The notes beneath the pieces were generated by a model. The model did not search any database, had not been told where the DNA came from, and saw only the letters and a program-made list of their open reading frames with translations. DNA of 42,814 nt from Sphaeroforma arctica JP610. Its lineage: Eukaryota. This document shows, piece after piece, positions 18,800 to 40,601 of the stretch. Position numbers and translations under genes: made by a program. Position 1 is the stretch's first letter; each line of letters begins with the position of its first letter. The stretch spans positions 1 to 42,814 of the forward strand of contig NW_014039770.1 in assembly GCF_001186125.1 (NCBI RefSeq). The letters run 5' to 3'.

Positions 18800-21780
18800 G
18801 CGTGAGGAGAACAGATGAAAGAGAGTGAGGCGGGTTGGACGTGAGGAGAATAAATGGTTCGAAGGTCCTTCTGTTCTCTCGCTTTATACCATGTAGAAAA
18901 ACAAGAGAAGAGTCTTGAGAAGGAGTGACCAAGAGTCTTGATTTTCACAACCAGTGATAGTATCATCAGTGTTGGTAGTACGATCAGTGGTAATCTTACT
19001 CTATTGACGTCGTTCCAAAACAAGATGATTAAACATAAATAGCAGATTTCAATCTGCAGCCATTTATGTGTTGTTCTTCCAAACACCGCAGAGTCTTAGG
19101 GTGCGACGTTCTCGTTTAAGGAGCTTTCCGCTTGTGTGGGTATAATAGTCCGCACATGACTTTGTTCAGTATACGGTATTGAACACATACTGTGATGTGT
19201 CGACCGATAGGGCGCTGGCTACAAACCCTCGTCGAAAGGAATGTGTTGCTAGAGGTGTGACCAGTTGGAATGGGATACCAGCGGAGGATCTTTAGGTCGG
19301 TCTAAAAGCGGGCGTTCTGGGTTGGTGTGCCACAAATGTCGTCGCGATCATCATCCGTCGGCTGTACTGAATTTATGTCAACATTAAATACTCGCAAACG
19401 ATGGATTGTAATGCTGGCAATAGGTGCTGTGACAGAGTGTTGGAAATTTCTGCTTTGCTGGTCGTCCGTGTGCAGCGAAATCATTGCTCGATCGGTTGTG
19501 TCGCTTGCGACTTACAAAATAGTTTGTACCATTTCATCTACTGGACTGAATATGATGTGGATTGGACTGAATTTGTTATTCGAAGAGATCCGGGGTCCTA
19601 CCAAAAAGAAGTACGCTTGGTACTCCAGAAGACTGCATATACCCAACCAGAGTATTCTAGTCAGAGCACTTTGTCTGGCTGAACGCGTCCCTCTAAGGTA
19701 TAGATAGACTTGTATGCCGTTTTAAGTCCATTCCACATGTCAATTGAGAGGTTACCATATGAAGTCTTGGTGTCACCTGCAAGTGCTTTGCTTTGTTTAA
19801 TCATCACTGAGCTTACAATGTGAGTTCGTTGTAGCTTCATGTGTCATTTGAGCATATGGTAAACCAGGTATTTGATGGTGCCTTCACGTGTGACCGTTTG
19901 CAGCGATCGATCTCCACATACTATTGTCGTGCGGTACTAGCTGTAATGCGGTTCAAATTAAGCCGATACTGAAATGAGAATATATCGATCCCCGCTAAGT
20001 ATGCGGGTCGATGAGAATGACCACGTCTGCGGGATAGTGAACCTCGCCAGACTCTAGCATATGCATGTCGAGTGCAAACTATACTAGCAGTGGCCATTAA
20101 TGCACTTTAGGCCACAGTGATGCAAATATCACTGTAGATGTGTGTTGTACCTTCAACCGAAGGAGGATTTTGACATCATAGACTTGGAGGCATCAATATG
20201 CACACTTTTTTGTTCGTGTAGCCGACGTGCCTCCAGTGGGCCCAGTGTCCAGCTTTATTTGTATTTCAATAGCTTCTCTTTGAGGGACAACCGATCCGCG
20301 GCGCATTTGAGGGTCCCCAGTATATCAGATCTGTCGGCCACAAGGCTTAAAGTCGGTATACCGTCGATGTCAGGGTAAGGAGTTTAATTCAGTAAATAGT
20401 TGGAGGACTGTCTGCGGAGTAGAGCCGCGAGCGCTGTTGTCGAATCCGCTAGTATTAGAACTGGTATGTGTGGTTTTAGCAGGGGTTTGCTCCAGTGGTG
20501 CTGGAGACATCGTTTATCGTACGATGGTACGTACTGATTGACTAACTGGATTCTTGTAGGGATCATGTCCGAATAGTGAGGATCCCAACACTGTGTGCAC
20601 TTTGGGTATTGAAGAAATATATCTCGAGGTCGACGGTTCTAGAGGGCGTATGTCAGTTTCTCAAGTTTGCGAAATGCTGCTCCTGACAAACAAATTCTGG
20701 ATCCTAACTGCGCTGTCGTGGGTTGTAGAGGTGTTGAAGGTTTGCCTTGTCATCTGAGACCAGCCAGGTAGGGTTGTGCTGAAGGGACTACAAACGTTGG
20801 TCACTGTATTAATCCGAAGTAGCGGTACCAAGCTTCCAGGCTGACATACCGCTGCTTGGGCAATAGGCGTTGTTAGATGTTAGAAGATTCGAGTGTCAGT
20901 TTGTTCAATGGCTTGTGTTAGTCGGTACTGGCCGGCCGTCATACCGATATCGACTCCTAGGTGGTCCAGCTTCCGCAACGGTGCCTTCCAGTGGCCTTTT
21001 TCAAGTGTCAAGCGGAGGTTTAGCTACAATACTATTTGGTCGATCCGATTCCGATGTTGAGTGATTCGTGTGATACAAACCATAAGCAACAGGTCGTCCG
21101 TGTCGTCCGTGTATACACTCTTTCCTGACTAGTTTTCTGAATACATCTGGGAATTTGGAAAAACAATGGGGACTGAAAGTGGCTCCCGTAGGGAGCATTA
21201 TATACTCGTATAGTTGTCTCTTCACTCTCTTGGGTCCTCTCATTTGCCACATTTGGGTTCGGGTACTTTTAAGGGCGAAGAAAGCCGTCGCGAAAGTCTG
21301 ATGTCGGAAGGGTGGGCTGTGGTCGCGAGTAACTCTAAACCCTCCATTTTGAACTTTGGCGCCTGAGTATAATTCTGGCTCTGTTGTTCGATTTTGCTAA
21401 ATCGAATAAGTCGTGTATGCAACGGTCTTCGCCCTCGTCTACTTGTCGTATTCAACCGGCTGTTTCTTGTCGGTCGAATGGATACCGACGGTGACCCCAC
21501 GGGATCCCTACTCCACTATGGATCCATTCTATCATCTATTTCGAGGCTCTGGCTTTTCGCCAGGCTACTAGCTTGGAGCTGGCCGAATCGAAGCGCGATG
21601 GAAGGTACACTCTAGTCGATTGCAAATCTACGAAAAGGAGGCAGTTTGTGGAGGTTTCTGAAAACCTCCAACATACGTCCCTGACTTCGTTTTCTTGGTT
21701 GACGCCTTCCTTTGTACACTGTCGTATTGTCGTTAGTGATGTAAGCGTCGGTTTGCCGACACATAAAATTTTCAAAGCGT
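18800..21780 (-). mobile_element. Heavily decayed non-LTR retrotransposon (LINE-like); RT core ~19850-20580; outer limits uncertain
   Basis: Eroded RT motifs in correct order on the minus strand: SDMIPTRI (~20550, like GPDGIP), YRL*AL (~20350, like YRPISL), VHIDASK-YDV (20171-20203, like DxxKAFDSV), GLKC..PLL..ALD (~20070-20115, like GxxQGxxLSPLLF), YPADVVIL (~20015-20040, like YADD), EGTIKYLV (~19862-19885, like KYLG). Many stops and frameshifts. Confidence 0.6.
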
Positions 21781-22085
21781 AAACGTGTCTATTGTCTAAG
21801 CATATTTTTTAAAGCAATTGCGATAGTAGTCGATTGATAAGAATCAGCAATACTCTGGGGGATTAGAAATATTGCTTTAAAACAATCATCTCAATACTGA
21901 ATTCGCCGAGAGGGTTTTATATATGTTTTCGTCGTCGTGCTTGGCAAAAAAATGTATTATTGTTTTTAAAACTAAACAAGATAGTATCTTTAGCAAAAAG
22001 GGTATATATTCTCTAAGCATTACATTACCCAATGACTAGCCACGCATTAGGAATTACTAGCGCGCTATCATCAGACTGGTAGTCT

Positions 22086-22199: not shown

Positions 22200-24345
22200 C
22201 ATGTCGCTACTGAAGTATTCAGATACAAGTCGTTAGAGAATTAGTTGGCCTTTCAATGAATGGGCTTACTCCAAATAGCTAATTTATAAAATGAAATAGG
22301 TATCTATAAAAACATTAAACCCCATTTGGAATAGTTTGCGTACATCTTGAAGTTCCAAAGGCCGTCTGCTTGTTGCTTGTTTAAGTTCATATAATCCACG
22401 CTTGAGACGAAGCACACTTCCTGGGGGATAGTGACCGAGGTTAATAGCACCCTTGGGGATATGTGTATACTGGCGTGTCAAGTTTACTATATATGAAGGT
22501 TGTATCAAGAAGTGATGGATAACCTTGTCGGAAGCGGCAGCGACAGCAATGAAGAGGCGGAAGAGTAGCGGCAGAAGTAGCAGGAGAGTAGGTGCCAAAG
22601 TATAAGTGCTCATTTTCTTGTTCATCACCTCGTGCGACCATGCGAGCTTTGTATATAGTGGGGTGTCCATCAGAGTGTATGATTTTGGCACTTGTAGTGA
22701 CTTGGTGAGCTTGAATAACGCCCGCGAGATTGTTGCGAGCATAGGCATCAAATCAAAGGGACAAATTAGGGAGGTTCACGACTGTTAGGACTGGATTTAA
22801 GAACACTATCATCGAGCATGGATGCCATTTCAAATAAAGTAACTTCGGAGGAAGAGGTCGGAAGAACAAAAAAAGCAGTAGATGCAAGAACTTTTTCAGC
22901 GTGGGTGGGCGGGCCATCGTCAGTAGAAGAAGGAGAGGGAATAAAAACCAGGAGGTAGAGCGTATGTGATATGCGCCTGGGCGCTAGGGGCGTGGGGAAG
23001 CTCGGACTTGACATCAATGTAGTTAGGCCATTCTATATTACGCGGTTGGTAGCCAGTTGTCAGCAGAGGAAAAATCACCGTGGGTGGAGGAAATAGTGGA
23101 TACAAGGACCAAAGCTGGGATATAGGAATAGGAGTAGAAGTCGGCGTGCTCGAAGGTATATGAGGTTACGTAGAGCGAAGCATCAATGATGGATGATGAT
23201 AAGTCCAAAATTCGTAATCATATGCAATGACACGTTGACAGGTGCGATATTCAGCAATAGCCTGCTTGCGAGCATGTAATTGAGCATGGACGTCCGAGGA
23301 AGACGACCACCAAGCAGGAGCAGCGGGTGAATGTACAATCGAGGTTATGTTCAATATGAACGATAATCAAAAGCTGAAGAGTGAGAACGAGAGGTGCACG
23401 AGCCGTTGTTATTGCAAGTATAAATAAGGGAAGAGAAATGATGATCAAGGGCATCGTGATACTGAACGGCTTGGGCTGCATTGCCATCAGTTGAAGCTGG
23501 GAAGGGATGAAATGCGGACCTACCAGACGCTGGAGACGGGGGATCAGTGACCTGAGAAGAAGGCAGAGATGCAAAGGGATCTCTTGTAGCTGAGAAGCTA
23601 GCTTGAAGGCGGTGAGGTTGTGGGCTGTTGTGATCAATAGTAACAGGGATGTGTGTATTATGGGGGTGGGTAGCACGACTTTTGGAGTGGTGGCAGGGGA
23701 TGTTGTGGTGGTGGCAGGGGATGTTGTGGTGGTGGCTGTGGTCGTGAGTATGGATGGTGAAGTGACTAGAAGAGGCGTAGTGCTGAGATATAGGGACTGG
23801 CGGCAAGGTGGAGCCAGGGATGGTAGCCGGGCTGTGCCAGAGAGTGAGAATAGTGTTCGAGGTGGAATGGTTAGAACGGGTAGCTCGCTTGGCATGAGCT
23901 GACCACTGTGCTCATCACGTAGAATCAGAAACGCGGCAATAAAGCATATGTCGAGTAGCAAAATTTTGGAAGCGGTATATATCGACTGTGCAATTGAATG
24001 TTATACTAAGGAAGACTCCCAAGGCCAACATGTACTATAATTGTGTCTTTTTGAGTGAATCATCGGATAGACAAAAATGCACCTTTATTTATAGCCAAGT
24101 GTGCTGTAAGGTCCTTTGCGAAATTCTTTTGATGAAATAATTCGCAGAACTCCAACGAAGCAAAAGCATACCAGCGCTCAGGAGAGCCGTGTTACGTGTA
24201 AAGACGTTGAGGGTGCCTTGTGCGCGTTCGACGCGGTTGTTAGGCTGAAGCGTGCTGGAAGGATATCTGTAAGGAGCTTATTTCTTTATTTCTTTAATTT
24301 AAAATACACAGTCGCCGTCAGCAATAGTGGCATGTGACTTCCTGC
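22200..24345 (-). mobile_element. Decayed Ty1/copia pol fragments (integrase C-terminal half, SH3-like segment, Pro/Thr linker, reverse transcriptase)
   Basis: Minus strand: PSSTLQPNNRVERAQGTL...ALLSAGM..RW (~24150-24265, integrase E region), GVFLS...YRF (~23970-24020), IDVKSELPHAP...YALPPGF (~22950-23020), IYKARMVARGDEQ...TYSP (~22585-22660), LDTTFIYSKLDTPVY, SVLRLKRGLYELKQA (~22375-22420). IN-before-RT order is the copia arrangement. Confidence 0.8.
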
Positions 24346-24749
24346 TCNNNNNNNNNNNNNNNNNNNNATCATGGAATATGTACAATGAGGGCCTTGATGT
24401 GCTTGCGCATGTTCTGTTTGTTCTTGAGGTGTGAGTGAATGGCATATTTAGTGCCATCACAAAAGAGATTCAGAGTGTATTTGCTACCATCACGTCTTTC
24501 AGGCATGTAACCTTGAAGGTTTATATGAATTGTTTGCCAGGGTTATGCGATGTATCTGTGGTTGCGTGTTGGACATGTTTGTTTTATCACAGCACTTAGA
24601 AATCATTTGCAGTACGCGGGCATCGAGAGCCAATATCGAGGCAAGAAATAGCATAATTCTGTGATACAAAGGGATCACAAAACTCATATGTACGACAAGT
24701 AAGAAGGAAATAAAGACTACTTGGAATCATAGATTTGTGTGTTTTAACA

Positions 24750-26330
24750 GGTTATAGGCCTATGCTAGTACACACGGTAGATAGCTTTCTATAATTAACA
24801 CACGGTGACAATTGCATTGACCAGTATCCTAGAGGTAAACACACGAATACGAACACGACTACGCTATACAAAGCAATATCAGCTTTATGCAACACATACT
24901 TGAAGAATTCCAAATCAATCAACTGAACACCAATGAATAATCCACACTATCAAAAAGAATCTGCACCCACACCCATGGCAAATACACAACCAGATTAAGC
25001 TATAGTACAACCTACCCCTAGTATCACAATCATCGTGTACGTCGACAATCTAGTTGCAATCGGCGAACACAACACTACATCACATTGGTGAGCAATCTGA
25101 TTGAACTCCTGTTATTTGCCTGAAGGCTTCAACTCAGGCAACGAAGTAATCGCTGTCGCAGTACGCATCTGGTCTGTATGTACAGTTTACAGAACAATAG
25201 AAGGATGTAACACTCATCTCAAAAATATCATCCAACGTGTCAACGAATGTGGCATCAAGAAAGGATCACTAACCACACAAGCCGTACGCGGTATAGCACA
25301 ACTTGACACCATATACACACAATACAACGATACACGACATAAGTAAGATACATCGATAGAACAGTTCGATCCTCTTGGAGAGGAGCTGATCTACTTAGGC
25401 CACGAACATACCAAAATTACGCAAAACTCATAGGTCGATACCATGACAAGAATGAAGAACATGAATTACTCCCACGAAAGATGAATGAGCTCGAGGATAA
25501 ACTAGTTCAGACACAATCTAAACTGTATCTCAAGGAAGAGAACAAACCGTTTAAGCAGGCTTTAGAATCAGAAATAAACAACTTGACAGCCGATCTGTCT
25601 CAGGCACATATGGAGATCAAACAACTGCGTGTCTCTGCTGTAACCCATACAAGCAGCAGACAGCAATTGCCGACGTAAACTGATTAATTCTCTCGACAAC
25701 TCTCAACACAGTTTACAAACCTCATCTATCTAAACCACCACACAAGCTATTTGCACACATTTGCAGACCCAACAACACTGGTAGCAATAGAGGGTTCTGG
25801 TCAACACTACACGAACCCACTAGTTTCAAATCTAGCAGATCAACCGAACAATCCATGCAGAAGCTAGAAGAGATACGACAGCGCTCGATAGATATAGGGA
25901 AGCAAGTCCCTGAAAAGTACCTTACATATGCACTACTATACAGTTTCTCAGACGAGTATAATGCTCTGTAGCGATATGTTCAAACTTGATACCAGCAAGT
26001 TAACAATCGATGAAGCATATACTATGGCACTGAAGTTCGAAGGTGACACTTAGATATAGAAGAGAAGCCTAACGGTGAGCCCAACCGCATCCTTGCATTC
26101 CAGTAGAGCAATGACGACAAAGCCAAGAAACCCAAGCCTACCCCTAGACCATGCCCACTTTGCAAAGAAGTAGGACACAACATTTACACCTGTCCAACCT
26201 CAATATGTCAACGCGGTTGCGCATCAGACCACATGGGTAGCAAATGCACAGAGGATTGGAATTAGCTGATTTGTACGAAGTGCACTAGGGCAAACCACAG
26301 GGGCCAAGCGTGTATGAAGTGAAGGAACGA
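24750..26330 (+). mobile_element. Decayed copia-like 5' portion: PBS-like motif, coiled-coil gag N-terminus, gag core and three CCHC-type zinc knuckles
   Basis: ...ttaaca|ggttataggcct at 24750 (LTR end followed by a GGTTATGGGCC-type PBS). Gag remnant IGKQVPEKYLTYALLYSFSDEY (~25890-25960). Knuckles CPLCKEVGHNIYTC, C..GCASDHMGSKC and CTKCTRANHRGQAC (26152-26313). Paralogous to the gag at 27287-28100. Confidence 0.65.
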
Positions 26331-27286
26331 GGTCCAGGACAAATGTATCACATCAAGTAGTATTGAGCGCCAAAGCCAAGAGATGATTCCGACATGATAG
26401 CATAGTTGAGGGGCTGTACAGGGGCGCCAGTCAGTATGAATTAGACAAACCATAGCAATAAATGTGTGTGACGGATGAAGGTATGTTCCTTGTTGCGTAT
26501 GATGTATGGTTGTAAGTGCAATCGATATGTAACAGTGTTTCACCATCTCACACATGAAGGAACTGTTATAATCATGACGAGTAATGTGTCACATGATGCA
26601 TTAACTGTTATAAATTCAAAGATATGTTACCATTTAGCATTAGCATAGCGGATATTGTAGTCAATAAATGAACTTTGTGCCAATCGTCGACGACACCTCC
26701 GTCTAGGCCAGTAAAGAGCGGTAGTTTTAGGGTTTAGCTAGCATTCACACGTGACTATTGATCTCGATGTCCCGTATACAGCAATCTTGTGTCTGCTAAT
26801 ACACACTTAATCGCAATCGGTAAACTCATCGATGAACTACGTATAGACCGCCAGGAAGTGTACGTCTCTACAACTGCAGCCTTGGCACTTCTGACATTTA
26901 CTACAAGCGACCTGTACCACGTACGTAAACACAATCAAGATTTACAGACTGAGCTTGACGGTTCAAACGCCATAATGTGCAACTTGGGGAATAACATAAT
27001 CTACTTTTAGCTAAACACGAAACACTGAACAGAACACGCGCAACTCTCCGACAGTCATACAAAGACTCAATCACGCCTCTAAGAACAAACAGACCAATCG
27101 ACTGACAAACCCAGTGCTCTTCAGGCTGAGCTCAATTACACGCGCATAGAACTCCAAGAAAAACTCAATATAATCGATCATCTAGAGCGCGCAACCAAGC
27201 CGAAACCAGCCACGTATGCCGACAAGTACGGTATCACTGCCGACGATCCTAGTGTTGCGCTTTCAGAGTGACCAAAATACAAAGAG

Positions 27287-28100
27287 ATGTACAAGCGCAC
27301 TAAATTGGAGAATTGGGAGAATTTCGGACCTTGTATAATAAGACTCAAGATGGAGCTCGCACGTTGTGGTGTTCTTCATCGCCTCCACCCTGCCTCTGAC
27401 AAGATATGTGGTACCGACGTACTAGTCGATGCACGATGCCGTCGTATTATGATCGACTCCATTCAGGAAGAGCTCATTAACACTGTATACAAGAACCACT
27501 ACTCTAAGTCGCCTTCCGAATTCTTTACCTATATCTGCATCACAAACAACTCTGGTAGTCACGGACGCTTCTGGGACTGCATGCAACGCCTTTTCAACTT
27601 TAAGGCATCAGGTACCACAGAGAAGACCATGCAGGCTTTGGAGGAAATTTTCCTAGGCCTCCTCGATGCTGACGAAGTTATTCCAGATGAATACCTTATC
27701 TGTGCTCTACTTTATAGTCTGGTTAACGAATACCAGCTCCTCCGATCCAATGTCTTCGATCTCGACACCGACAAACTCGATGTCAACGAGGTCTATCGCA
27801 TGCCTCTTAAATTCGAAGATGACCACCAAATTTCCGCATGCAATACTGCCACAGGAATCAACGCGCTCACTACGAAAGATTTGAATGAAGCAAAGGACAA
27901 ACGTTCACCTCGTGAGATCACATGCCCCTTATGTAAAGACATCGGTCACGGTATCGACTGCTGCTGCAAATCAATCTGCCGCAGATGCGGCTCCAGGGAT
28001 CACATTGGCAAGAAATGTCTCGTCGACAGTGCGACTCTCACATGTAGCAAGTGTGACAACAAAACAGGCCGAACAACTGAAGATACGGAGCCCTATCCAC
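27287..28100 (+). pseudogene. Copia-type gag with zinc knuckles (within ORF 27287-28492)
   Basis: KLENWENFGPCIIRLKMEL..CG (like KLxGxNYxxWxxxMxxxL), gag core and CCHC knuckles. Confidence 0.7.
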
Positions 28101-28654
28101 AGGAACTCATGCTGTACATAGTTTCACAACTCCCCGCCCTGCTACTCCACATGATCTACCTGAGTGCCACTATAAGCTTAATATACTCAATGCTACCTCA
28201 CAAGGGCCCGCGCAAACGTTACCCTTACTGCTTCACTTATCGACTCCGGAGCAGTGGTTCATATACGTTCCACACAGATGGCGTCAAAGAATTACACACT
28301 GGTTGCTTTATCGTAGAGTTCCCTGTTAAGAGTCAAATTATCCTTAATCCCAGGCCTTGGCCCAGTTCTTATTATGCCAACCGCGACTCAAAATATTTTA
28401 TTCGTACAATTACTACAACGACACAATTATGGCATATATTTCCCGCCGGAACCGAATGCCTCCGTTCCCACCGAGTGTTGCATACTCGATAACAAGTCTT
28501 ACATCCTATCCCAACCCACAATGGCCAATACACAGCGGCCAGCTTCACAGCCAGCACCATTGAGAACTGACAAGACCGGTTAGGACATCGATCCGACACA
28601 CCACAAACGCTGTCTCAGAGCAACATCACGCCTACCCCCCTACCCAAGCCTTCG

Positions 28655-29085
28655 CACGATGACTGGATGTTGAATCCTACTCTCGTTCAAAAACACGTCA
28701 CTGATGTCTTCGGCGCGATAGACATCGATCTATTTGCGCAGAAACACAATACACAGGTCTCTATCTATTGTAGCCTGGAACAAGATACACCATTGCATGA
28801 CGCCTTCAAACAGTCATGGAATCAACCAAACACACATCTTCACGGTAATATACTTTTTCGTATCAAAACATGGTGCGAGGCACTTCACAAGCTTGAAAAG
28901 GAATATGGCCTTATTACAATGGTCTTTCCACTTCAACCTAACATACACAACTACAACCAGACGAAACTTCAGTTACACTCATACGTAGAAGTCATCAAAA
29001 CCACCGCCGATACATTCTTGCAATCTGGCACCGAGATTCCCGGACCACCTAAGTGGCGATATATCTGCATTGCTCGAGTGGTCAG
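28655..29085 (+). pseudogene. Dam-like DNA N6-adenine methyltransferase domain in copia pol (motif IV reads NILF)
   Basis: DDWMLNP...FGAIDIDLFAQKHNTQVSIYCS...DAFKQSW....LHGNILF...LHKL...TMVFP...FLQSGTEIPGPPKW follows the DIRS/phage Dam pattern W-L...DLFA-x3-N...DA-x3-W...NPP[FW]. Confidence 0.75.
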
Positions 29086-29599
29086 TACTATACACACAGT
29101 TCCACCAACAACAGAGCTCCTAGACGCCAAGGCCAAATGCACATATCGTCCGCGCGCCACCCCTGTGCCCGCAAATGCGCAGACGTCCAGTGTCACGCAA
29201 AACAAAGGACGAGAATACTTTGCCACCAGTTGGAATGTCTTTCATGTTGACCTACACACGGGTTTACCTGCTTTCCCGACTGGCTATGCATACAACATCA
29301 AATATGTAGATGCTAATAGCGGACAACCTTTCATCTATCCACTCAACCACAAAGACGATACCAGTGCAACATTAGACCTCTTCTACACTGACATAGGCAA
29401 GACTACCTCGCAAATCTCCGAGAACTCAAATGCGATCGTGGTGGAGATTTTGTCTCCAAGGATTTTACCCGTATCAACACACTCCAGCACGTTATCTAGC
29501 CTAGGAGAAGACCACATTGAAGTATGCGAATGATAGAATCATTGGCCAATTTAAGTGGAAAAGAATCAGTTTTAAGTGTAAAAAAATTATTCCAGTGCT

Positions 29600-30450
29600 A
29601 CTGTCTATAATAGTGCACATGCGGACTAACGGATAAGAAAAGTTGTCTGATTTGTGGTTTTTAGCTTGACAACTGTCGCAAACCAGAGGTCCAGCTGCAA
29701 TCCTTGTCATATGGCGCTTAGTACCACAGCGACCACAGCCACGCATATACACATTGACAGTACGGTTTGTTGGCCAGTAGATAAAGCACGGTGAGCGTCC
29801 GGCTGGTGGACGCGTGCGGGTGCGGTGTGGTAGGTAAAGTGAATGACTGAATTAACCAACCTAGTATTAGGTTTGTTTGTTGAGTCATTTACCTTATTTA
29901 CTACAAAACTGGAAAGTGTTGCGAGTACTTCGATCTTAGTCCACACGATCCGCTTCTGGGAGGATTTATCTTAACCTTCCCCGTTGGGTGATAGTGCTGG
30001 CTTACCACCGGCTGATTCGCTCCTATCACAAAATTTACCCAAGACGAGATTATGACTGAACCACCCAACCTAAACCAACCGACCTGGTACTTGCCATGTC
30101 TGCGAGAAACAGCTCTTATTTTTCGGTTTTCCTTCAAGGCGATCAGAATACTTAACGAGTTGCTGAGATGTGGCTTCAGTTGACGAGAGGACTCTCTTTG
30201 CTTGACGAGAAGGGCAAAGTGCCGCTACTTTGGGCGCATTGAGAAAGTTAGGATGTTTGGATATTTGCAGTTGAGCAAGAGTAGTCTTGACGCCACGACT
30301 AACCAAGAATTGGCAAGTTTATCCCTGCTGCTTAGGCTAGAGACCAATAGGAAAATATCGATATTAAAAATCATCAGTGGAGATAAGAATTCCGCGTCGG
30401 GGCGTCTTAGAGCTTGGTGCGACGAGCGGCCTATGTACGCATGTGTTCAT
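29600..30450 (-). mobile_element. Decayed gag/LINE-ORF1-like remnant with two zinc knuckles, abutting the truncated copia integrase
   Basis: CGRCGTKRHMTR-C and CDSCQAKNHKSDN (~29640-29740), preceded by ..WTKIEVLATLSSF; broken by frameshifts. Confidence 0.5.
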
Positions 30451-30599: not shown

Positions 30600-31478
30600 A
30601 CTTGCCAAATGGTCCGTGGGAGGGTAGGATGACGGAGCGGAGTCAGAGCATGTAAGAGTTCATTTTCGATCTCTGCTGACACCCGGTGCGAACCTTCCCA
30701 GAGGTCAATATTGAGGCCATCCTTGACAAGGACAGTCCAGGACACCGTAACGCCCTTTCTGGTGAGCTGAATACTAGATAAGATAATGTCAATATTATCT
30801 AAAATAGGCCCATAACCTAAAGATACCTATGTACGGATTTACTAAAAGACCAAACTCCATTGTTGATACTAGGTAAGGCTTATAATAAATTTATTGGTCC
30901 TGTTGTCAATTCAAAGTGGACCATGCTGGTTTTTTGTAAACCAAGCTGGTTTCTTGTAAAACAGGATGTGGGGAAAAACCCATGAGTTGGGGGTTTGGTA
31001 GACAGGACTAGGTTTTACTCCGATAGTGACTTGCCAAATGGTCCGTGGGAGGGTAGGATGACAGAGCGGAGTCAGAGCATGTAAGAGTTCATTTTTGATC
31101 GCTGCTGACACCCGGTGGGAGGTGGTATCCGATATTTATTCAGATGTTGCTTTCCCAGAGATCAATATTGAAGCCATCCTTGTCAAGGACAGTCCATGAC
31201 ACCGTAGCGCCCTTTGTGGTGAGCTGAATACTAGATAAGATAATGTCAGTATTCTCTAAAATAGGCCCATAACTTAAAGAGACCTATGTACGGAGTTACT
31301 CAAAGACCAAACTCCATTGTTGATACTAGGTAAGACTTATAATAAAGCTATTGGTCCTGTTGTCAATTCAAAGTGGACCATACTGGTTTCTTGTAAACCA
31401 TGCTGATTTCTTGTAAACCATGCCATGAGTTGGGGGTTTGGTAGAAAGGAATAAACTAGGTTTTACTCCGATAGTGAG
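30600..31478. repeat. Two tandem ~430-450 bp diverged copies (30600-31028 and 31029-31478)
   Basis: acttgccaaatggtccgtgggagggtaggatga starts both units and ctaggttttactccgatagtga ends both. Confidence 0.9.
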
Positions 31479-32033: not shown

Positions 32034-32877
32034 TGTAGTGCGCGAAATTGAGTAATTTGTGCTCTATATGGTTTAAGGAAAACCACCTTGTGGCAGAGAA
32101 AAGCTTTGTTAATTCGCACTGTTTACTACTCAAGTTGTAAACCTCTATAGTTGTTAGAATGAACTTATGGGCACACTTTATCTATACTTATACAGTATAA
32201 TCAGTAACTTGTGCACAACACTCAGTGTCCACTATAATAATCTACAAGATATATTACTGCATATTTAGATAACCTAGCATTAGTCTAAGCGTCTTCCACC
32301 GTAACTTATACTCATGTCGACATCCAATAGTCTTTCTAAAGGTCGATCGTTCAACAGAGCCTTGCTCATCACATCCTTCATAAAGCAACATCCATAACTT
32401 CACTCACATGTGCGCATCATCATCTTATGGCTTCACATCTGTATATTCTGAGTTCAGGTATGTATACTTCGATGTATACTGTACGATATACTGTTTTCCA
32501 CTAATCAATCTTTATCTGATGTTCATAACATCGATTCGTTATGTCGTGTGAACATCACATCTGCTCTTATCACATCATCACATTTCATCACTGCCGTGTT
32601 ATCAGGTAGTTGCACATATAATGCTGTTCTTATATCACGTACTAACCTGTTATATGCTTGTTAATAATCCTCATTCTCCAAAATGTGCCTTCTTCATGTT
32701 CAATACCAGAATCTCATATATATTATATTATCACATGTGTGCTTATATTAACCTCAACATCACAAATTATATTCTCATGTATAAATTATATATGCCTAAT
32801 ACCACACTGAAAATTATTTCATATTGGAGTAAACTTCTTCTGAATGGAATGTGGCAGAGTACGATGTGCGCATTACA
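32034..32877 (-). repeat. 3' LTR (844 bp)
   Basis: Starts tgtagtgcgc and ends gcgcattaca (10-bp imperfect inverted termini); colinear with 40602-41388; followed by cgccccctcc (PPT complement). Confidence 0.85.
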
Positions 32878-34389
32878 CGCCCCTCCACAGAGACAAGTAC
32901 CGTAATACGCGTCTCTGTGGATTCTGCACAGTGTTACCTGACTGTAGTATGAACATATATCAGCCCAATGGCATAGAACAATATACATATACAGTCGCCA
33001 GCATATCAGAAAATTCAAACATCACTTGTAGAAAACAGCAACACGAAAAATACAACACGTATGTGCCTGACCGCTTTAAGTAATTGTGTTGTGATTTCTT
33101 GTGTGACAAACACGACAATTCCGCAATGGTACAAAATGCTGCAGAAATGTGTTTGGACGGACACCTATGTGAAAAAACATCATCATCAAATCACCACAAA
33201 AGCACAACAGAAGTTCCTCAGACCCATAAATCAGATATAAAGGGTGACTTACTACTAAAACACGAGATGCACACTGTAAAAACAGACTATAGCCGTCATT
33301 GCTATGTACAACATTTAATCTATCAAACATTACTCGTGGGAGGGAACGTTACGAACCCCTCATTACCCCACATAAACTCGGAAATAGAACCACTACCCGC
33401 GCATGACAATATCAATATCCGGCACGAGTTATATAGTCGTTTTGCAATCACGTACCGGGACTTCAACAGACGTGTTGCCCAAGTACCACGACCTTACTAC
33501 AACAATCGGCCCTTCCATGCACCCTTGCGTCAAACAGATCGGGGGAATCCTACTAAACTGGAGGTGTCCTATAGCGGATTCGAGAATAGTGACAACAGCA
33601 TGCCCGCACTATTGTCGGACAGTAGCGATCGTGAGAACGAGCAATCTCAAGCGCCTTCGAGAAACCTGGACAAGGCGCACGCATACTCGAACAAATGAAC
33701 AAACGCCTGGGATACCCACATCACCTCGTAGCATTCATAAACGTGCAGCCTACCGCAATGTCCGAGCAAATAAACTAAGAGTCTTCATAGACGATATGAC
33801 ACTGGCAACCAGAGAACAAGGTATGCGAACAAATGTGACTTTGATTTTTTTATCATGTATAAAAGGTGCGGTGCTAATACAAATCGGTGGCCATTCAGGT
33901 CAACACAGAAATGTCGCATCGCACATGTATATCTAAGGGGCTATGACCACTGAGTTCTTCTTAGTAACGAATATATATATAAGTAATGTAATAGGTATAC
34001 TATTAAGATGAGATCATCTGGCGATACCAGTATCCTCATTCATCCAGTTGTCCATCTGCGTCTGGCGTAGTGATTGATTATAACCCATCTGTGTGCACAT
34101 TCGCAGCTGAGAATGGGAGACACCCGTAGATTTCAAGTATGTCACCAGCTCTGGCAAGAGCTCAAACGAGGTGACAATTGCGGTACACAATGTAGCACAA
34201 TGTTGCTCCTAGGTAGATCACACAGCTGTTGATATCGTCCCCAAACGGACCGCATCCGTTGGGCCCATTCCTTGGCTGCCTTGGATGTTAAGAAGTACAG
34301 GCAAGGCGATTAATATGTGTAGAGTCTGTCTCCTCATACTCATATTTATCCGTGTGGTAGTAATCGATGAAAGCACGATGTATCTTCAC

Positions 34390-35850
34390 TGTCTTATTCT
34401 TGTATAACAACACGTGAAGAGTAGTGCTTTCATGTCCAATGGGTTCCGCAGGAGCATACCAGTGGGCACATAGTTTATGATGGCCAATGTCACGCCAAAA
34501 TCAAACTGTTGTTCCTACTGGGATTTGTGGTGTGTCTCGCCGCGACTTGTCTGCGTTACATTGTTGTGTAAGCCGTCGTCGTGTATACAAACGAGTTGCA
34601 ATACGGTCTCTGATGACCGCAGGAAGGCCAATATCCTCGACTAGCATAGTACCAATCTTATCCTATAAGGTCAATTGTTTGGACCCATCGTACTACCAGT
34701 ATGAAGAAAGAAGGGAGAAAAGTCTGTCTGCGGCACGACTGTGGCATTATGGGCTGACGCCGCTGCGTACACATTCGACACCCAGTCATAGTATGTCGAT
34801 GACTCATTTAGGGGGCCATCCACTCTTCCTGAGTGCGTATAGCCCTCTCTACCCTTTCATTTCATCCATGATGTGCGACTGAAGTAAGATGCACAAACAT
34901 GCCTTGCTCTAACGTTCCGCAGAAGCATACCAGTGGGCACATAGTTTATGATGGCCAATGTCACGCCAAAATCGAACTGTTGTTCCTACTGGGATTTGTG
35001 GTGTGTCCCGCCGCGACTTGTCTGTGTTGCATTGTTGTGTAAGCCGTCGTCGTGTATACAAACGAGTTGCAATACGGTCTCTGATGACCGCAGGAAGGCC
35101 AATATCCTCGACTAGCATAGTACCAATCTTAACCTATAAGGTCAATTGTTGGGACCCATCGTACTACCAGTGTAAAGAAAGAAGGGAGAAAAGTCTGTCT
35201 GCGGCACGACTGTGGCATTATGAGCTGACGCCGCTGCGTACACATTCGACACCCAGTCATGGTATGTCGATGACTTATTTAGAGGGGCCATCCACTCTTC
35301 CTGAGTGCGTATAGCCCTCTCTACCCTTTCATTTCATCCATGATGTGCGACTGAAGTAAGATGTACAAACATGCCTTGCTCTAACGCGAAGTCTTTAAAA
35401 CCTCTTGCAATCGAATACACTATCCTTGTCAGCAGTAATTTGTTGAGGAAGCCCTCACGGAAACACTTGCTCACGCATGAACTTAATAACTCTCATAGAG
35501 GTTTTCATTGCTTGCGTAAAGATGCTAACCACTAATAGTTTATACATCTTATATACTGCTACCAGTACCGAGGATTCGCCAGTAGGAGCCATTGGAATGT
35601 CCACGACGTCCAGGCTCCAGTTGGCGGTAATGACCACTGTTCGCTCGGGTTGATGCAACAATCCTAAAGATTCTGGAGGTGGCCTCCCATACTGCTGGCA
35701 TTGTGCACACACCCTTCCTATCATCCGCAACTGAGGTCGTAGATTGTCCCAACCAAGCACATCTTTGGTCAAGTACTTCAAGCGGGTCTGCGCGGCGTGA
35801 GCATACGCCAAGTGGAGGTACTGCAAGGATTTGACAACTTGGGCACCTGT
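34390..35850 (-). pseudogene. Gypsy integrase (HHCC zinc finger and rve core), frameshifted and partly duplicated
   Basis: HLAYAH...VCAQCQQ (HHCC), WSLDVVDIPMAPTGESSVLVAV (first catalytic D), later DWVSNVYAAASAHNAT. Confidence 0.8.
34443..35385. repeat. Tandem duplication of the integrase core 3' half (34443-34913 and 34914-35385)
   Basis: Two highly similar 471/472 bp units, each gttccgcag...gccttgctctaac. Confidence 0.95.
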
Positions 35851-36309
35851 CAGCTCCACACCACACAACTTGCGTGTTGGACATGCCAAAAGAACAGGCC
35901 AAGGGTCCGTTGGTAGAGGAATAGCCTTGCGTCGAAGTGCAGAGCCTGCTTCACTACCCGTTTCCGCCGTAGAGGCGACGTTTACTGACACAGCGATGAC
36001 TGGTATGCCACATGTCTCTACCCTTGCTTACTCTTGTTGGCGTCGTACATATTCTATAAAACATTGCTCAGTCTTAAGTAGTGCTTGATCTAAGCTTGAC
36101 ATTCCCTCCACTTCTATTGGTGGACAAGACCCTATGACTAAAGAAGCAGCTACTTGTCGCGCCCCATTCCTCACAGCTTTGTGATCCATCTGTACCTTAA
36201 CAGCTAATTGCGTTTGTGATGGCGTACGAGGCACTGTATCCACGACGTCTTCTCCACTAGCCAAGGCTTCGCACTTTCTCCCTATATCGGCACTCAATTG
36301 TATCGTCTT

Positions 36310-36717
36310 GGGCCTAATCTACAGATGAGAGTGACGAAGGACGGTGGCCCCGCATCTTCCCGACCGTGCCTATTGAATACTCCTGCACATTTCGGGATGA
36401 CTATAGGGTCGTCGGCCAATAAGCCAACCATAATCGAGAACCAACCTGTTCAGGGCCAATATGGACAGACTAACGTGCACCAGGCTTTTCTTCCTTTGCC
36501 TTCTGTACTACTGCTGGTAACAGAGTCCAAGGGGGATTAAAGAACCAGTTTACACTGGGGTCGCCCCAGTGTCGTACAAATACCCCCCCCCTTTTAACGT
36601 AGGAACACAGTAATTAGGGAGTATCGCATTGCCGGGGAGTGCAAACTCGTCAGCCGTATGTGGCCCCCAACGTTTATCGGCAGCGCGGAAGTATTGAGAC
36701 GTCAATTGGTATTCTTC
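36310..36717 (-). pseudogene. Dam-like DNA N6-adenine methyltransferase domain in gypsy pol, NPPW motif retained
   Basis: EEYQLTSQYFRAADKRWGPHTADEFALPGNAILPNYC, then after a frameshift NWFFNPPWTLLPAVVQKAKEE (NPPW at 36529-36540), TLVCPYWP*TGWFSIM and VFNRHGREDAGPPSFVTLICRL. Confidence 0.85.
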
Positions 36718-36799
36718 TGTGGAAGGCATAGACACCAGGGGATCAGCGAAGTGTACTCGAAGATCCTCACTGCCCCCTCTTAGGCGCAAAATAGGGTCT

Positions 36800-38040
36800 A
36801 TGGTGACACACAAACGTGATAACACATCTGCGACCGGACTGACCTCTCCGGGTATGTGAACTATTTCTACGTCGAAGTCGCGTACCACGTTAAAATATCG
36901 TCACATTTGTCTGCCTCTCATATCATACACGAATGACTCCCTAGGCTTATAAAATAGTACAACTAACGGTTGGTGATCTGTGTATAAACGTATTACTTTC
37001 GTCGTTCGTCTCAGTATCCGTACATTCTTTCGTATTCCATACACCAGGGCCAACGCCTCTTTATCAGAAATGTGACAGGCCTTCTGTGCCCCATCATAAC
37101 GCGACGAGAAGCTGACTGGAAGAAAGTTACCGTCTCTCAACACAGTAAGTACCCCACCTATCCCCACAGACTCACATGCATCTGCAAACATCACGAGTTG
37201 TTCTGTAGGAAGCGGTTCGACCAACACTGCACATTGCCTCAAAAATTCCACAATTTTGTGAAATGCTGCTCGTTGTGGTTCTTCCCATGTGAAAATGCTG
37301 TCTTCTTTGAGTAGTATGGCCACAGGTTGTAGTATCCTCGCAAAATTGGGCGCGTACTCAGCCCACCAACGTACTGTATGATACCATGACTTCAGTAGGT
37401 CTTTCGATGTTGGTTCACTAAGTTCTAGCAGAGCATGTAGACGCACATCATCCATTGTTGATCCTCTGTAGTCGACCAACCTTCCAATAACCACCACCGG
37501 AGTTCTATACTGAGCAACCATATATTTTGACAGTCTTTATTGCACATTATACCGTTGACACCTCTCCATGAACAGCTTGAGACACTACCAGTGTTCCATT
37601 GGGTCGTTGTGTGCAAATAATATGTCATCTATATAGCAGACCAGATTATCCAATCCTGCAAATATATCCTCCAACACTTGCTGACACCTCCATGATGCCT
37701 CCTTTAACACGAAGGGCATCCCTACAAATGAGTCTCTTCCAAATGGTGTTTTAAAAGACAAGTATTTATGTGACTGAGGCGCCACCCTCAACTGACAGAA
37801 TGCCTGACCCATATCCATGGTCGTTATATAGTTTTTGTTCTTTAACTTCGACAAATAGCCACGTTCTGTAGGTATATGATTAGGTATAGCTCTGAATTGT
37901 GTGTTTACTCTTTTCAAATTGACACAACACCGCCAATCGTCTACCACCACAGGTGTTACCCCCGGTTCTTGTAAATCAGATGGGGAGCTGAGCACCACTC
38001 GCTCTTCGTAATCTTCTCTGTGATGCCTGCCTTCAACCAA
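36800..38040 (-). pseudogene. Gypsy reverse transcriptase and RNase H
   Basis: DWRCCVNLKRVN, TMDMGQAFCQL, SFKTPFG...MPF.LK, CYIDDILF; FTWEEPQRAAF, FADACESVGIGGVL, PVSFSSR, KEALALVYGI, LYTDHQPL, DVEIVHIPGEVSPVADVLSR. Confidence 0.92.
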
Positions 38041-38633
38041 GCTGATACCTTCATAAATAACGCCTTTCCCCGTACTTCGTCGTTATAAAAGTAGCTTCAA
38101 TATTGAGGGACAGCATCATCGTTCTCATACAACACTAAGTCTGCTACATTCAGGAATTTGAGATGCATGGCATCGTACGCAACAGCCTCAAAGACGGCTA
38201 GTAAAGTGTGTGGTTCTTCTTTTGATGATGCTCACACTCTCTCCGCCAGCTTGTATATACCTACGGTTGCAAGATCTGGGTCCATCGCCTTATCTCAGAC
38301 CTCGTATTCCTGCTCATCATCCATCCACTCAGATGTACAGTAATTTTCACTAAGCCTAGGCAAAGCATGTGTGACTCCTGATGCACTCTTCCTCATGAGT
38401 TCCTCATCTTCCTCACATACTGTAGCCGCTATTATGTATTCCATCGCCAGTATTCGAGCTGAATCCATCAGCTCTTCTTGTGGTACTATCGTCAACACTT
38501 GTTTCCTCCAAACTATATGCCAACATAACTCCTGCAGACTTTGTATCCCACCAATAAGTCACAGTTCATGGGTATACCTGTTACCACCAAGCACTTCATA
38601 TCTATCATTTTCGTGTACGTCTTCCATGATGAT

Positions 38634-38745
38634 ACTTGTACGTCTACCACCACCTCACCTATGGGTGTTAGTTTACCCATCTCCGCAATACTTGTACGTC
38701 TACCACCACCTCACCTCTGGGTGTTAGTTCACCCATCTCCGCAAT
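38634..38745. repeat. 56 bp tandem duplication in the protease region
   Basis: acttgtacgtctaccaccacctcacct...cccatctccgcaat occurs twice (38634-38689 and 38690-38745). Confidence 0.9.
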
Positions 38746-38779
38746 TCCGGTATACCTCTCCCCGGAATACGCTGATATT

Positions 38780-38850
38780 GCTATTTCATGCGTTCTACTA
38801 AAGCTGTGGTTATCAGCGTAGGAGTAGCATCCAAATCCAAGTAACTCAAT
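38780..38850 (-). pseudogene. Eroded retropepsin active-site region
   Basis: LSYLDLDATPTLITTALVERM resembles LDTGAxxSLIxxxLV and lies upstream of RT. Confidence 0.55.
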
Positions 38851-40601
38851 CGTTACTCCATTTACTACAGCTATAGCAATGCTCCCATGTCAGTGTTTGT
38901 CAGGTACCACAAACTTTGTGGCACTGGCAGCTACTGTCCCAGCTGACTTCACCAGAGCTAGTGGCAGCTCTTGCTACGCCTCCCGCTGGGTTGGCCCTCA
39001 AGGCCGCCGCCACGACCGCCTCTTCCTATTTCTTTTTCTGTGTAAAAGTCAGACTTACCAGACTGACTATCGATGTCAATAAGTTAACGTGAAGGAAGTA
39101 CGATTTCAAAGTAAATTAGCACTTTGTAATTTTAAGTTTAACTTCAGCCCTTGGTAATGAGACAAAGATTAGGGATGTAAGACTGAGACTTTTGTCTTTG
39201 TGGCTCCGCTCTAATCACTCAATATTTCGGTCTAGATTTATTCGGTGTCAGTAACTAAGATCAGATTTAATTTCATTGGATGCATGATATTTCATTCTAT
39301 ATCATTTCATGCCTCGCAACAACCTTCCAATCGCAATTACAAATAAAACAACTCTAAGTCCAACTTAAGAAAAAGAAAAAGAAATAAAAAAACACCATGA
39401 TGGTACTGTTGAATGTCTGTACCAATACCCCATCACATGGTACCTAGCTCTCAATCCCATTTTTTTTTTGCTTTCAGCAAATTGTTTTGGATCTTATAAG
39501 CGGTAGCCCACCGGTTTCATAGGCTATCTCTACTATCGCTTTATCTTACTCTTTCGAATAGCAGGCTAGCACAAAGTTGTGTAGATCAACTTCTACTTAT
39601 TTTAAGTTTTTCATGACTTGAGACGCAAAGTCTTCGTGCTTAATCATGGGCTGATATGCCAGCTCTGACAATCGGATACTCAAAGCCGGAGCGATTAAGA
39701 TGATGCCACTGGTTTCCTTTTTCGTGAGGATAGAAGGCTAAAGTTGTCCTTCTTAAAGTTTGATGCTGCAGTGGTCACCTTCTTGCTATTGAGAGCCAAT
39801 GCCTCGTCATTCATTTTCTTGGCCATTGACGAGTCTTTAGTGATATCTACTGTTGCAGCCGTACCTTCCACGGCTCCTTGGGCAATAGTTGGAGCCACCT
39901 TTAAACTTTTTAGACTCCAGTCATCGATACCTTTGATTTCAATACTTTCTCTGAACATGTTGGTCCATGCTTTAAGCAAGATTGTCTTGAATACGTTCTG
40001 TTTANNNNNNNNNNNNNNNNNNNNNNNNNNNNNNNNNNNNNNNNNNNNNNNNNNNNNNNNNNNNNNNNNNNNNNNNNNNNNNNNNNNNNNNNNNNNNNNN
40101 NNNNNNNNNNNNNNNNNNNNNNNNNNNNNNNNNNNNNNNNNNNNNNNNNNNNNNNNNNNNNNNNNNNNNNNNNNNNNNNNNNNNNNNNNNNNNNNNNNNN
40201 NCAAGCATCATTGACAATGGATTCCACCAAGTTTTTCAACTGAGACGATAGGTCGATTAGCAAGACCTTTAAAGTCTTTGATTTCAACAGCAAATAAGCT
40301 AGCGTCCCAATTCAACGAGGCTAGCTCGACTGGCACAGCAATTCTCAATTTACTAGAAAGCTCTTCATCTAAGTCTGGCAGCCTAGTGACAGTATCAGCT
40401 TTATCCTTGGCTGTTCACCCTCTATCATTGCGCAAGGCCAGTCACACAAGATTCCAATCCATAATAAACTCGTGCCTCATCGCAGAGAACTTCTGCTTCC
40501 CACGAAAACCGTGATTCATTTTTTTGCCGCATCGGAAATCGACATGATTCCCTCTAATCCTTATTAATATTTACTCAATTTCAATAAGGTCAATGTGTAG
40601 T

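What the first reader, a model, noticed from the sequence alone, without database searches (positions are those of the whole stretch)
28655..29533. Ty1/copia polyprotein containing a Dam-like DNA adenine methyltransferase in frame with integrase
Seen: one open frame (28667-29533) runs from WMLNP...FGAIDIDLFAQKHN...DAFKQSW...HGNILF...GPPKW into a copia-type integrase (FHVDLHTG...GYAYNIKYVDANSG..FIYPLNHKDD), downstream of a copia gag and LIDSGA protease. Established: this MTase type is a known component of DIRS tyrosine-recombinase retrotransposons and phages, and is not part of canonical copia. Motif IV reads NILF instead of NPPF, so this copy may be dead. Inference: the enzyme could methylate the cDNA or the insertion site.
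Basis: partly seen in the sequence, partly recalled or inferred. Interest (0 to 1): 0.8.

Follow-up and report, generated by a model that had tools for sequence, protein, structure and literature searches.

The report
Copia integrase with built-in adenine methyltransferase
This is a broken copy of a copia-type jumping gene whose family carries an adenine-methyltransferase domain inserted into the zinc-binding part of its integrase, where it likely marks the element's new DNA copies; such domains were so far reported only in other classes of jumping genes.

Summary
Observation confirmed, with corrections. The frame 28571-29533 holds a Dam-like domain (Pfam PF05869 E 1.3e-4; a relative's model matches PCIF1, KsgA/Erm and T4Dam) followed by a copia-type integrase core, after a copia gag and protease. 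It is a family trait, not a DIRS passenger: six other proteins named Sphaeroforma arctica carry it (Dam identity 25-81%), dN/dS against a sister copy is 0.09, and a second, divergent copia-like element in this window has it too. The domain sits between the His-His and Cys-Cys halves of the integrase zinc site, so it likely stays in mature integrase. This copy is dead (stop, frameshifts, Cys pair deleted, no RT or LTR); 27 linker codons are read out of frame. Sister copies read NIPF, not NPPF, which is the Erm-type motif. Dam-carrying LTR elements were described in a May 2026 preprint, including in S. arctica, but all as Ty3/gypsy; copia is not mentioned. The scan listed six earlier gypsy cases in other genomes and none in copia. 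Activity, substrate and donor are untested. New variant of a known kind; interest 0.6.

The parts
26762..28100 (+). Copia-type gag, decayed: coiled-coil N-part, capsid-like part, Cys/His knuckles. No 5' LTR recognised; similarity to other copies starts at about 26741
   Evidence: Pfam Retrotran_gag_2 E 2.7e-5 at residues 106-177 of frame 27272; translation; sister-copy contig aligns from 26741
28218..28520 (+). Aspartic protease (LIDSGA at 28236-28253), frameshifted, with a stop
   Evidence: Translation; tblastn to P0005 residues 97-190, 35% identity, and to P0002. No Pfam hit for the part scanned
28568..28654 (+). First half of the integrase zinc site: W-H-x-R-L-G-H in sister P0002; here the Trp codon is TGA and the first His is Gln. 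A 22-residue spacer follows
   Evidence: Pfam gag_pre-integrs weak in P0005 (E 0.064) and P0002 (E 0.16)
28655..29092 (+). Dam-like (PF05869) N6-adenine methyltransferase domain: motif I DLF 28727-28735, motif IV GNILF 28844-28858 (NIPF in sister copies), GPPKW 29042-29056
   Evidence: fold of relative P0014; dN/dS 0.09
29093..29239 (+). Linker and second half of the zinc site (CxxC-x-x-GK in P0003 and P0014). Partly deleted here; 29159-29239 is read out of frame, net loss 18 nt
   Evidence: a sister-copy contig has 97 letters where the window has 79 (my arithmetic on tables 5, 7, 8)
29240..29495 (+). Copia-type integrase core, N-terminal part (FHVD...CDRGG), frameshifted at about 29398 and cut off at about 29495; no RT, RNase H or 3' LTR follows
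   Evidence: tblastn to P0002/P0003; P0002 core matches copia integrase clusters at TM 0.85-0.88
26410..26745 (-). Second, decayed Dam domain (C-terminal two thirds) of a P0014-type element that the focal element interrupts
   Evidence: tblastn to P0014 E 8e-7 within a 9.1-kb sub-window; local score 91 vs best of 200 shuffles 43; next best rows P0007 67, P0004 47
29505..29780 (-). Gag zinc knuckles and protease start of the same minus-strand element (inferred)
   Evidence: Translation; protease piece matches the P0014 N-terminus, reached by 1 of 500 shuffles
24000..24560 (-). Integrase-like fragments of the minus-strand element, recognised by eye from recalled copia motifs only
   Evidence: Translation; no Pfam hit and no significant match to P0002: unconfirmed
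22284..22775 (-). Copia-type reverse transcriptase fragment, colinear with the minus-strand gag, protease and Dam pieces
   Evidence: Pfam RVT_2 E 1.6e-4, below gathering score

Best explanation
This is a dead copy of a Ty1/copia-type retrotransposon lineage in which a Dam-like adenine-methyltransferase domain is inserted in frame between the His-His and Cys-Cys halves of the integrase zinc-binding domain, so that it likely stays part of mature integrase and would methylate adenines on the element's own new cDNA. Shown: the domain, its position, its presence at the same position in several diverged lineages, purifying selection on it, and the decay of this copy. Inferred: (a) the protease cannot cut the domain out without separating the zinc ligands, so it travels in the pre-integration complex; (b) the family motif NIPF is catalytically competent; (c) the 6mA it lays on cDNA or on DNA next to the insertion is then kept up by the host's AMT1 system and favours transcription of new insertions (the model that the 2026 preprint proposes for gypsy DAM-LTRs); (d) the domain was captured from a gypsy DAM-LTR of the same host lineage rather than directly from DIRS.
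For: Position: P0014 has His-His, Dam and CRVCVEGK in one protein, 194 residues from the second His to the first Cys; P0002, P0005, P0006 have His-His then Dam; P0003 has the Dam C-half then CNPCFVGK. A sister-copy contig spans Dam to integrase core 18 nt longer than the window, a multiple of three. Selection: window vs sister copy B, 88 codons, 35 synonymous and 19 non-synonymous differences, dN/dS 0.09, binomial p 5e-11; window vs copy C 0.30 on 37 codons. Dam identity to the window 81, 55, 51 and 25% for P0002, P0004, P0005, P0014. Fold: model of the P0014 stretch has mean pLDDT 83; best solved matches PCIF1 Z 9.9 (rmsd 3.0, 138 aligned), DIMT1 9.3, KsgA 9.0, ErmE 8.8, ErmC' 8.6, T4Dam 8.1, M.TaqI 8.0; Foldseek PCIF1 E 2e-4. 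Motif: copy C has C at 28854, giving NIPF, as in P0004 and the uninterrupted gypsy polyprotein P0007; NIPY is motif IV of ErmC' (PMC6787224 passage). Host context: S. arctica has 6mA and its DAM-LTRs carry more 6mA and more transcripts than other LTRs (preprint). Donor: without outgroup, copia and gypsy Dams form one side at 86/89; P0014 groups with two gypsy Dams at 95/93.
Against: No activity was measured; the preprint's own expression of eukaryotic DAMs in dam-minus E. coli gave no 6mA gain. None of the 5 readable copia motifs is the canonical NPP(F/Y/W), and the window's subfamily has also lost the two Trp that DIRS, gypsy and phage Dams mostly keep after the next strand (alignment), so the domain may have changed function. 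The model does not show the zinc site re-forming: both flanks have low confidence (residues 1-5, 30-36, 203-214 under 50). No intact full-length copia polyprotein with Dam was found, P0002-P0014 are gene models that may be spliced artificially, and the RT link rests on a second, fragmented element. Donor not settled: with the prokaryotic outgroup the window's clade falls at the base; gypsy-apart is not rejected (p-AU 0.06); copia as one clade is not rejected either (0.40, 0.31). Purifying selection could act on folding of the host integrase rather than on catalysis.
Confidence: 0.5

Rival explanations
1. The domain is a catalytically dead or weakened methyltransferase fold kept as a nucleic-acid or chromatin-binding module of integrase (for example binding flipped or already methylated adenine and steering integration to 6mA-marked, open chromatin), playing the part that chromodomains play in chromoviruses.
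For: 0 of 5 readable copia motifs are NPP; long branches and loss of conserved Trp in the window's subfamily; covalent position inside integrase suits a targeting role; negative heterologous assays in the preprint; earlier scan notes report gypsy Dams with altered catalytic motifs (untested by me).
Against: Motif I (D-L-F) and the Asn and aromatic of motif IV are kept across lineages only 25-55% identical; N-I-P-aromatic is the working motif of ErmC'.
Confidence: 0.3
2. The domain is active but methylates RNA (the element's genomic RNA or the RNA strand of the RNA:DNA intermediate), possibly twice on the same adenine, rather than DNA.
For: Best solved matches are RNA adenine methyltransferases (PCIF1, DIMT1, KsgA, Erm); NIPF fits the consensus (A/S/N)(L/I/V)P(Y/F) that PMC6787224 links to dimethylating enzymes; no DNA 6mA gain in E. 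coli.
Against: Z-scores of RNA and DNA enzymes are within about 1-2 units (T4Dam 8.1, M.TaqI 8.0) at 7-15% identity; sequence relatives are phage DNA methyltransferases (PF05869, phrog_111); the same passage notes a monomethylating enzyme with NVPF; integrase binds DNA, not RNA.
Confidence: 0.13
3. A DIRS or gypsy fragment landed in this one copy, or in a non-autonomous dead lineage, and is a passenger.
For: The window is a tangle of nested, decayed elements, with a DIRS-like and a gypsy DAM element nearby; all copies seen are broken; the open frame here is partly out-of-frame sequence.
Against: Same position in lineages 25-55% identical; dN/dS 0.09; no DIRS RNase H or recombinase, and no gypsy RNase H, at the domain's borders; a second divergent example in the window.
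Confidence: 0.04

Closest known systems
DAM-LTR retrotransposons, 'Ichthyosporean DAM-LTR lineage' (Fernandez-Moreno et al., bioRxiv 10.64898/2026.05.21.726589; whole main text read; figures and supplements not seen)
   Same: Integrase-encoding retrotransposon with a PF05869 Dam domain in Pol; same named organism (S. arctica); Dam related to the gypsy DAM-LTR type; same proposed 6mA logic.
   Different: The preprint's elements are Ty3/gypsy-like, classified by RVT_1; 'copia', 'Ty1', 'RVT2', 'PF07727' and 'zinc' occur 0 times in its main text. Here the carrier has copia gag, copia order and copia-type integrase, and the Dam lies inside the integrase zinc site, not between RT/RNase H and integrase. 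Motif IV is NIPF/NQP/NPIW, not NPP.
DIRS (tyrosine-recombinase) retrotransposon methyltransferase domain
   Same: Same Dam family: DW-L start, DLF motif I, motif IV; 29-31% identity to P0008 and P0010.
   Different: DIRS carry it after RNase H and integrate by a tyrosine recombinase; here no RNase H precedes it and a DDE integrase surrounds it.
Canonical Ty1/copia (Pseudoviridae), e.g. Tnt1-like plant elements
   Same: Retrotran_gag_2 gag, DSG protease directly followed by GAG-pre-integrase and integrase core; P0002 core matches copia integrase clusters.
   Different: About 165 extra residues between the His and Cys zinc ligands (canonical spacing of roughly 20-30 residues is recalled, not from a call).
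DNMT-carrying retrotransposons (de Mendoza et al. 2018, PMC5890265; passages read)
   Same: Retrotransposon Pol that captured a DNA methyltransferase kept under purifying selection.
   Different: Cytosine C5 enzymes, unrelated family, in DIRS, LINE and gypsy; that paper says Symbiodinium copia lack a DNMT. PMC12344493 mentions DNMT3 in 'LTR Copia' in passing, citing that paper; this is cytosine, not adenine.
PCIF1/CAPAM and KsgA/Erm/Dim1 adenine N6-methyltransferases
   Same: Closest solved folds (Z 8.6-9.9); ErmC' motif IV NIPY resembles NIPF.
   Different: 7-15% identity; RNA enzymes with extra substrate-binding domains that this domain lacks.

Membership tests
Ty1/copia | Order gag - protease - integrase, with no RT/RNase H between protease and integrase | tested here: met
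   LIDSGA at 28236, integrase His motif at 28571, core at 29240
Ty1/copia | Copia-type gag and integrase (WHxRLGH, CxxCxxGK, core) | tested here: met
   Retrotran_gag_2 E 2.7e-5; sister P0002 core: 9 of 10 structure rows named rve, and 9 of 10 clusters carry gag_pre-integrs, SH3_retrovirus, Pol_BBD, RVT_2 or copia gag; motifs in P0002, P0003, P0014
Ty1/copia | Copia-type RT (RVT_2) and RNase H downstream of integrase | tested here: inconclusive
   Missing from the truncated focal copy; an RVT_2 fragment (E 1.6e-4) is colinear with the second, minus-strand Dam element but separated from it by other inserted DNA
Ty1/copia | Paired LTRs, primer-binding site, target-site duplication | tested here: inconclusive
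   Self-comparison of the window found no repeat pair around the focal copy; the copy is truncated, and no genome was available to look at other copies
Dam-like N6-adenine methyltransferase (PF05869) | Profile match and class I methyltransferase fold | tested here: met
   PF05869 E 1.3e-4 (window), 1.2e-5 (P0014), both under the gathering score; fold of P0014. The window's own model was unusable (pLDDT 40)
Dam-like N6-adenine methyltransferase (PF05869) | Motif IV N-P-P-aromatic | tested here: not met
   0 of 5 readable copies: NILF, NIPF, NIPF, NQP(end), NPIW. NIPF fits the Erm-type variant
Dam-like N6-adenine methyltransferase (PF05869) | SAM-dependent methylation of adenine N6 in DNA | not testable with these tools
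   Needs a bench assay; the preprint's E. coli assay of other eukaryotic DAMs was negative
DAM-LTR as defined in the 2026 preprint | Ty3/gypsy-like RT (RVT_1) and organisation | tested here: not met
   No RVT_1 or RNase H next to the focal Dam; copia order and integrase. The separate element at 32034-41388 does meet it
DAM-LTR as defined in the 2026 preprint | Dam belongs to the eukaryotic TE Dam clade | tested here: met
   All 24 eukaryotic rows separate from 6 prokaryotic rows at 100/99
DAM-LTR as defined in the 2026 preprint | Raised 6mA and transcription of insertions | not testable with these tools
   Only assembled contigs were available
DIRS | Dam after RNase H, with a tyrosine recombinase | tested here: not met
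   Borders of the domain are integrase His and Cys motifs in the window and in 5 relatives

The most novel reading that the evidence does not exclude
A Ty1/copia lineage took a Dam domain from a gypsy element of the same host and built it into the middle of its integrase zinc finger, making a single integrase-methyltransferase enzyme that stamps 6mA (or, with its Erm-like NIPF motif, another adenine mark) on each new copy as it is inserted, so that the host's AMT1 pathway treats the insertion as an active gene. It would be the first adenine methyltransferase in the copia superfamily and a rare case of a whole enzyme inserted between the ligands of an integrase zinc site.
Probability: 0.35. Interest if true: 0.8.

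Novelty: new variant of a known kind. Interest (0 to 1): 0.6.

Why it matters
It extends Dam capture from DIRS and gypsy to the third major retrotransposon superfamily, probably by transfer between superfamilies within one host, which strengthens the case that the domain is repeatedly selected in hosts that use 6mA as an active mark. The position is informative: a domain locked inside integrase points to action on cDNA or target DNA at integration, which narrows the open question of what these enzymes act on and suggests why isolated domains failed in E. coli. It also shows that the integrase N-terminal zinc domain can tolerate a 165-residue insertion. Screens keyed on RVT_1 would miss such elements, so more may sit among the 46% 'orphan' Dams of the preprint.

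Tried and rejected
No whole genome is held for this window, so other copies were seen only as proteins and as contigs laid on the window. Longer relatives: none for the window frame among 1585 candidates; 2 of 5270 for alignment A1, one gypsy and one DIRS, no copia. Near-length search with A2: 8 hits of 1010 candidates, the 5 strong ones all from this family. DNA-pattern scans for the motif I region: viral contigs 0, 1 and 0 matches; metagenomes 120 loci from 50 of 64 parts scanned, of which 1 of 121 screened holds a full Dam, in DIRS-like context; prokaryote genomes 19 loci, 6 with a Dam hit, none copia-like in the flanks printed. The search for related loci on viral contigs with P0014 and A3 confirmed nothing. 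These blanks are weak, as the collections hold few protist genomes. The window's own structure model was unusable. PDB sequence searches gave nothing useful. ESM Atlas feature search gave no usable hit for P0014 155-380. No RNA holder listed; two runs guessed as RNA laid nothing and one laid only sister copy B: no evidence on expression. The minus-strand integrase piece was not confirmed. Weak Pfam hits RnlA_toxin_N and OGFr_N were rejected as chance: under cut-off, E 0.02-0.1. Rows left out of the tree: P0001, P0003 (no motif I), P0016/P0017 (near copies of P0007), L135/L136 (fragments); searches also drop 6 prokaryotic rows, P0002 and P0006. No complex prediction was sent. Literature searches for a copia Dam found none; subscription journals and the preprint's supplements were not searched or seen and could hold one.

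Full report
Observation. Pfam Dam hits residues 24-85 at E 1.3e-4, under its gathering score; the upstream frame hits the copia gag family at E 2.7e-5. A profile of 23 non-copia Dam domains gives 66.1 bits on 28655-29056 against at most -0.4 on reversed and shuffled windows (most of these rows were found with the window as query). Contigs from 2 of 4 runs laid span 26600-29800 without a difference, so the locus is real DNA.

Host and family. A search of 1.84 billion representatives gave 15 hits at E up to 0.001. One is the window's own protein. Of the 10 looked up, six (P0002-P0006, P0014) are named Sphaeroforma arctica hypothetical proteins. The other hits are Dam domains, mostly of DIRS type, and one uninterrupted gypsy polyprotein, P0007. 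Contigs laid on the window show two sister copies about 80% identical whose translations match P0002 (copy B) and P0003 (copy C). I infer that the window comes from S. arctica or a very close relative, a unicellular relative of animals.

Where the domain sits. In the relatives the Dam starts 22-26 residues after the second His of the integrase W-H-x-R-L-G-H motif and is followed by C-x-x-C-x-x-G-K. P0014 shows all three parts in one protein, with 194 residues from His to Cys; P0003 shows the Dam C-half followed by CNPCFVGK. P0005, P0006 and P0014 also have a Cys just before the Dam, where Pfam aligns the end of the GAG-pre-integrase model in P0005, so the insertion probably happened at the Cys pair itself (inference). 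The integrase core of P0002 matches copia integrase clusters at TM 0.85-0.88. The order gag, protease, integrase with no RT between is the copia order (established knowledge; Gmr1-like gypsy share the order but not these gag and integrase types, recalled).

State of this copy. It is dead: the protease is frameshifted and has a stop, the Trp codon before the His motif is TGA, the Cys pair is partly deleted, 29159-29239 is read out of frame, the core shifts frame at about 29398 and homology ends at about 29495. No RT or LTR follows. The net frame from Dam to core is still the family's own: copy B has 97 letters where the window has 79, a difference of 18 (my arithmetic).

Selection and motif. 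On 88 of about 146 Dam codons, using the differences that the cut tables list, window vs copy B gives 35 synonymous and 19 non-synonymous changes, dN/dS 0.09, p 5e-11; window vs copy C gives 0.30 on 37 codons; B vs C 0.31 on 36 codons, p 0.075. Copy C has C at 28854 and reads NIPF; copy B lacks one base there. P0004 and the gypsy P0007 also read NIPF, P0005 NQP, P0014 NPIW. So NILF is likely decay from NIPF, and NPP is not restored. NIPY is motif IV of ErmC', within a consensus that PMC6787224 links to dimethylating N6 enzymes (passage; also PMC9386465 passage). The motif is therefore compatible with activity but does not show it.

Fold. The window's own model failed (pLDDT 40). The P0014 stretch, folded on 20 sequences, reached pLDDT 83 and matches PCIF1 (Z 9.9, rmsd 3.0, 138 aligned), DIMT1, KsgA, ErmE, ErmC', T4Dam (8.1) and M.TaqI (8.0) (Foldseek). 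In the ESM Atlas its nearest models are Dam and DIRS-like clusters at TM 0.58-0.65. The His and Cys flanks are low-confidence, so closure of the zinc site is not shown.

A second example in the window. On the minus strand, 26410-26745 is another decayed Dam closest to P0014 (score 91 vs best shuffle 43). Gag knuckles and a P0014-like protease start lie at 29505-29780, and an RVT_2 fragment at 22284-22775, all on that strand and in copia order. The focal element seems to interrupt this one. This is the only link between the Dam and a copia-type RT, and it is indirect: other DNA lies between, and the integrase piece is unconfirmed.

Origin. All 24 eukaryotic Dams separate from 6 prokaryotic ones at 100/99, and P0014 groups with two gypsy Dams, one of them from this window, at 95/93; the window's own clade is long and falls at the base. 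Without outgroup and fragments, copia plus gypsy form one side at 86/89. AU tests reject neither copia plus gypsy (0.52), nor copia alone (0.40, 0.31), nor gypsy apart (0.06). A gypsy donor is favoured, not shown; the shared insertion point suggests one capture.

Mechanism. Cutting the domain out would separate the zinc ligands, so it likely remains in mature integrase and sits on cDNA ends and target DNA. My best reading (0.5) is adenine methylation of the new cDNA, then upkeep by host AMT1. Rivals: a non-catalytic binding or targeting module (0.3), RNA methylation (0.13), passenger (0.04).

Known work. The preprint 10.64898/2026.05.21.726589 (whole main text read; figures and supplements not seen) describes DAM-LTRs, including in S. 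arctica, with more 6mA and transcription than other LTRs and no activity in E. coli. All are Ty3/gypsy-like, classified by RVT_1, and copia is never named. Its S. arctica families were picked by tblastn, so these copia families may be among them unrecognised. PMC5890265 (passages), PMC12344493 (passages) and PMC11673190 (passages) give no adenine methyltransferase in copia. Seven searches found none. Earlier scan notes list six gypsy cases and none in copia. No copia Dam turned up outside this organism, a weak negative.

Verdict. Real, selected, family-level feature; new variant of a known kind; interest 0.6.

Noticed in passing
window 32034-41388 (coding on - strand): A separate Ty3/gypsy element with 83%-identical LTRs (32034-32877, 40602-41388; TG...CA; AGAA on both outer sides), RVT_1, RNase H and integrase, carrying a frameshifted Dam between RNase H and integrase (about 36300-36720) with an NPPW motif. 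It fits the published ichthyosporean DAM-LTR type.
   Followed up: partly
window about 19200-21900 (- strand): Decayed DIRS-like element: RT-, RNase H- and tyrosine-recombinase-like motifs seen by eye in the translation; no Dam profile hit there. Its Pfam scans were in calls that failed and were not repeated.
   Followed up: no
window 24750-26400 (+ strand): Copia RT-end/RNase H-like motifs followed by a second gag copy 45% identical to the focal gag; it lies between the Dam and integrase-like pieces of the minus-strand element.
   Followed up: partly
window 4827-6937 (-), 10140-11747 (+), 16500-17856 (+): Host genes: LYAR-type zinc-finger protein, NADPH-cytochrome P450 reductase-like protein (flavodoxin plus FAD-binding) and a nitronate monooxygenase.
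   Followed up: no
P0007 and P0018 (protein ids): Uninterrupted gypsy polyproteins from unnamed sources with Dam between RNase H and integrase; motif IV NIPF in P0007 (with chromodomain) and CPPW in P0018. Useful natural candidates for assays.
   Followed up: partly
L127, L130, L134, L135, L136: DIRS-type eukaryotic Dam domains inside contigs of bacterial MAGs, probably eukaryotic contamination of those bins.
   Followed up: no
window 30600-31477 and 34443-35386: Tandem duplications of about 430-470 bp (84% and 97% identical); the second lies at the gypsy integrase 3' end.
   Followed up: no
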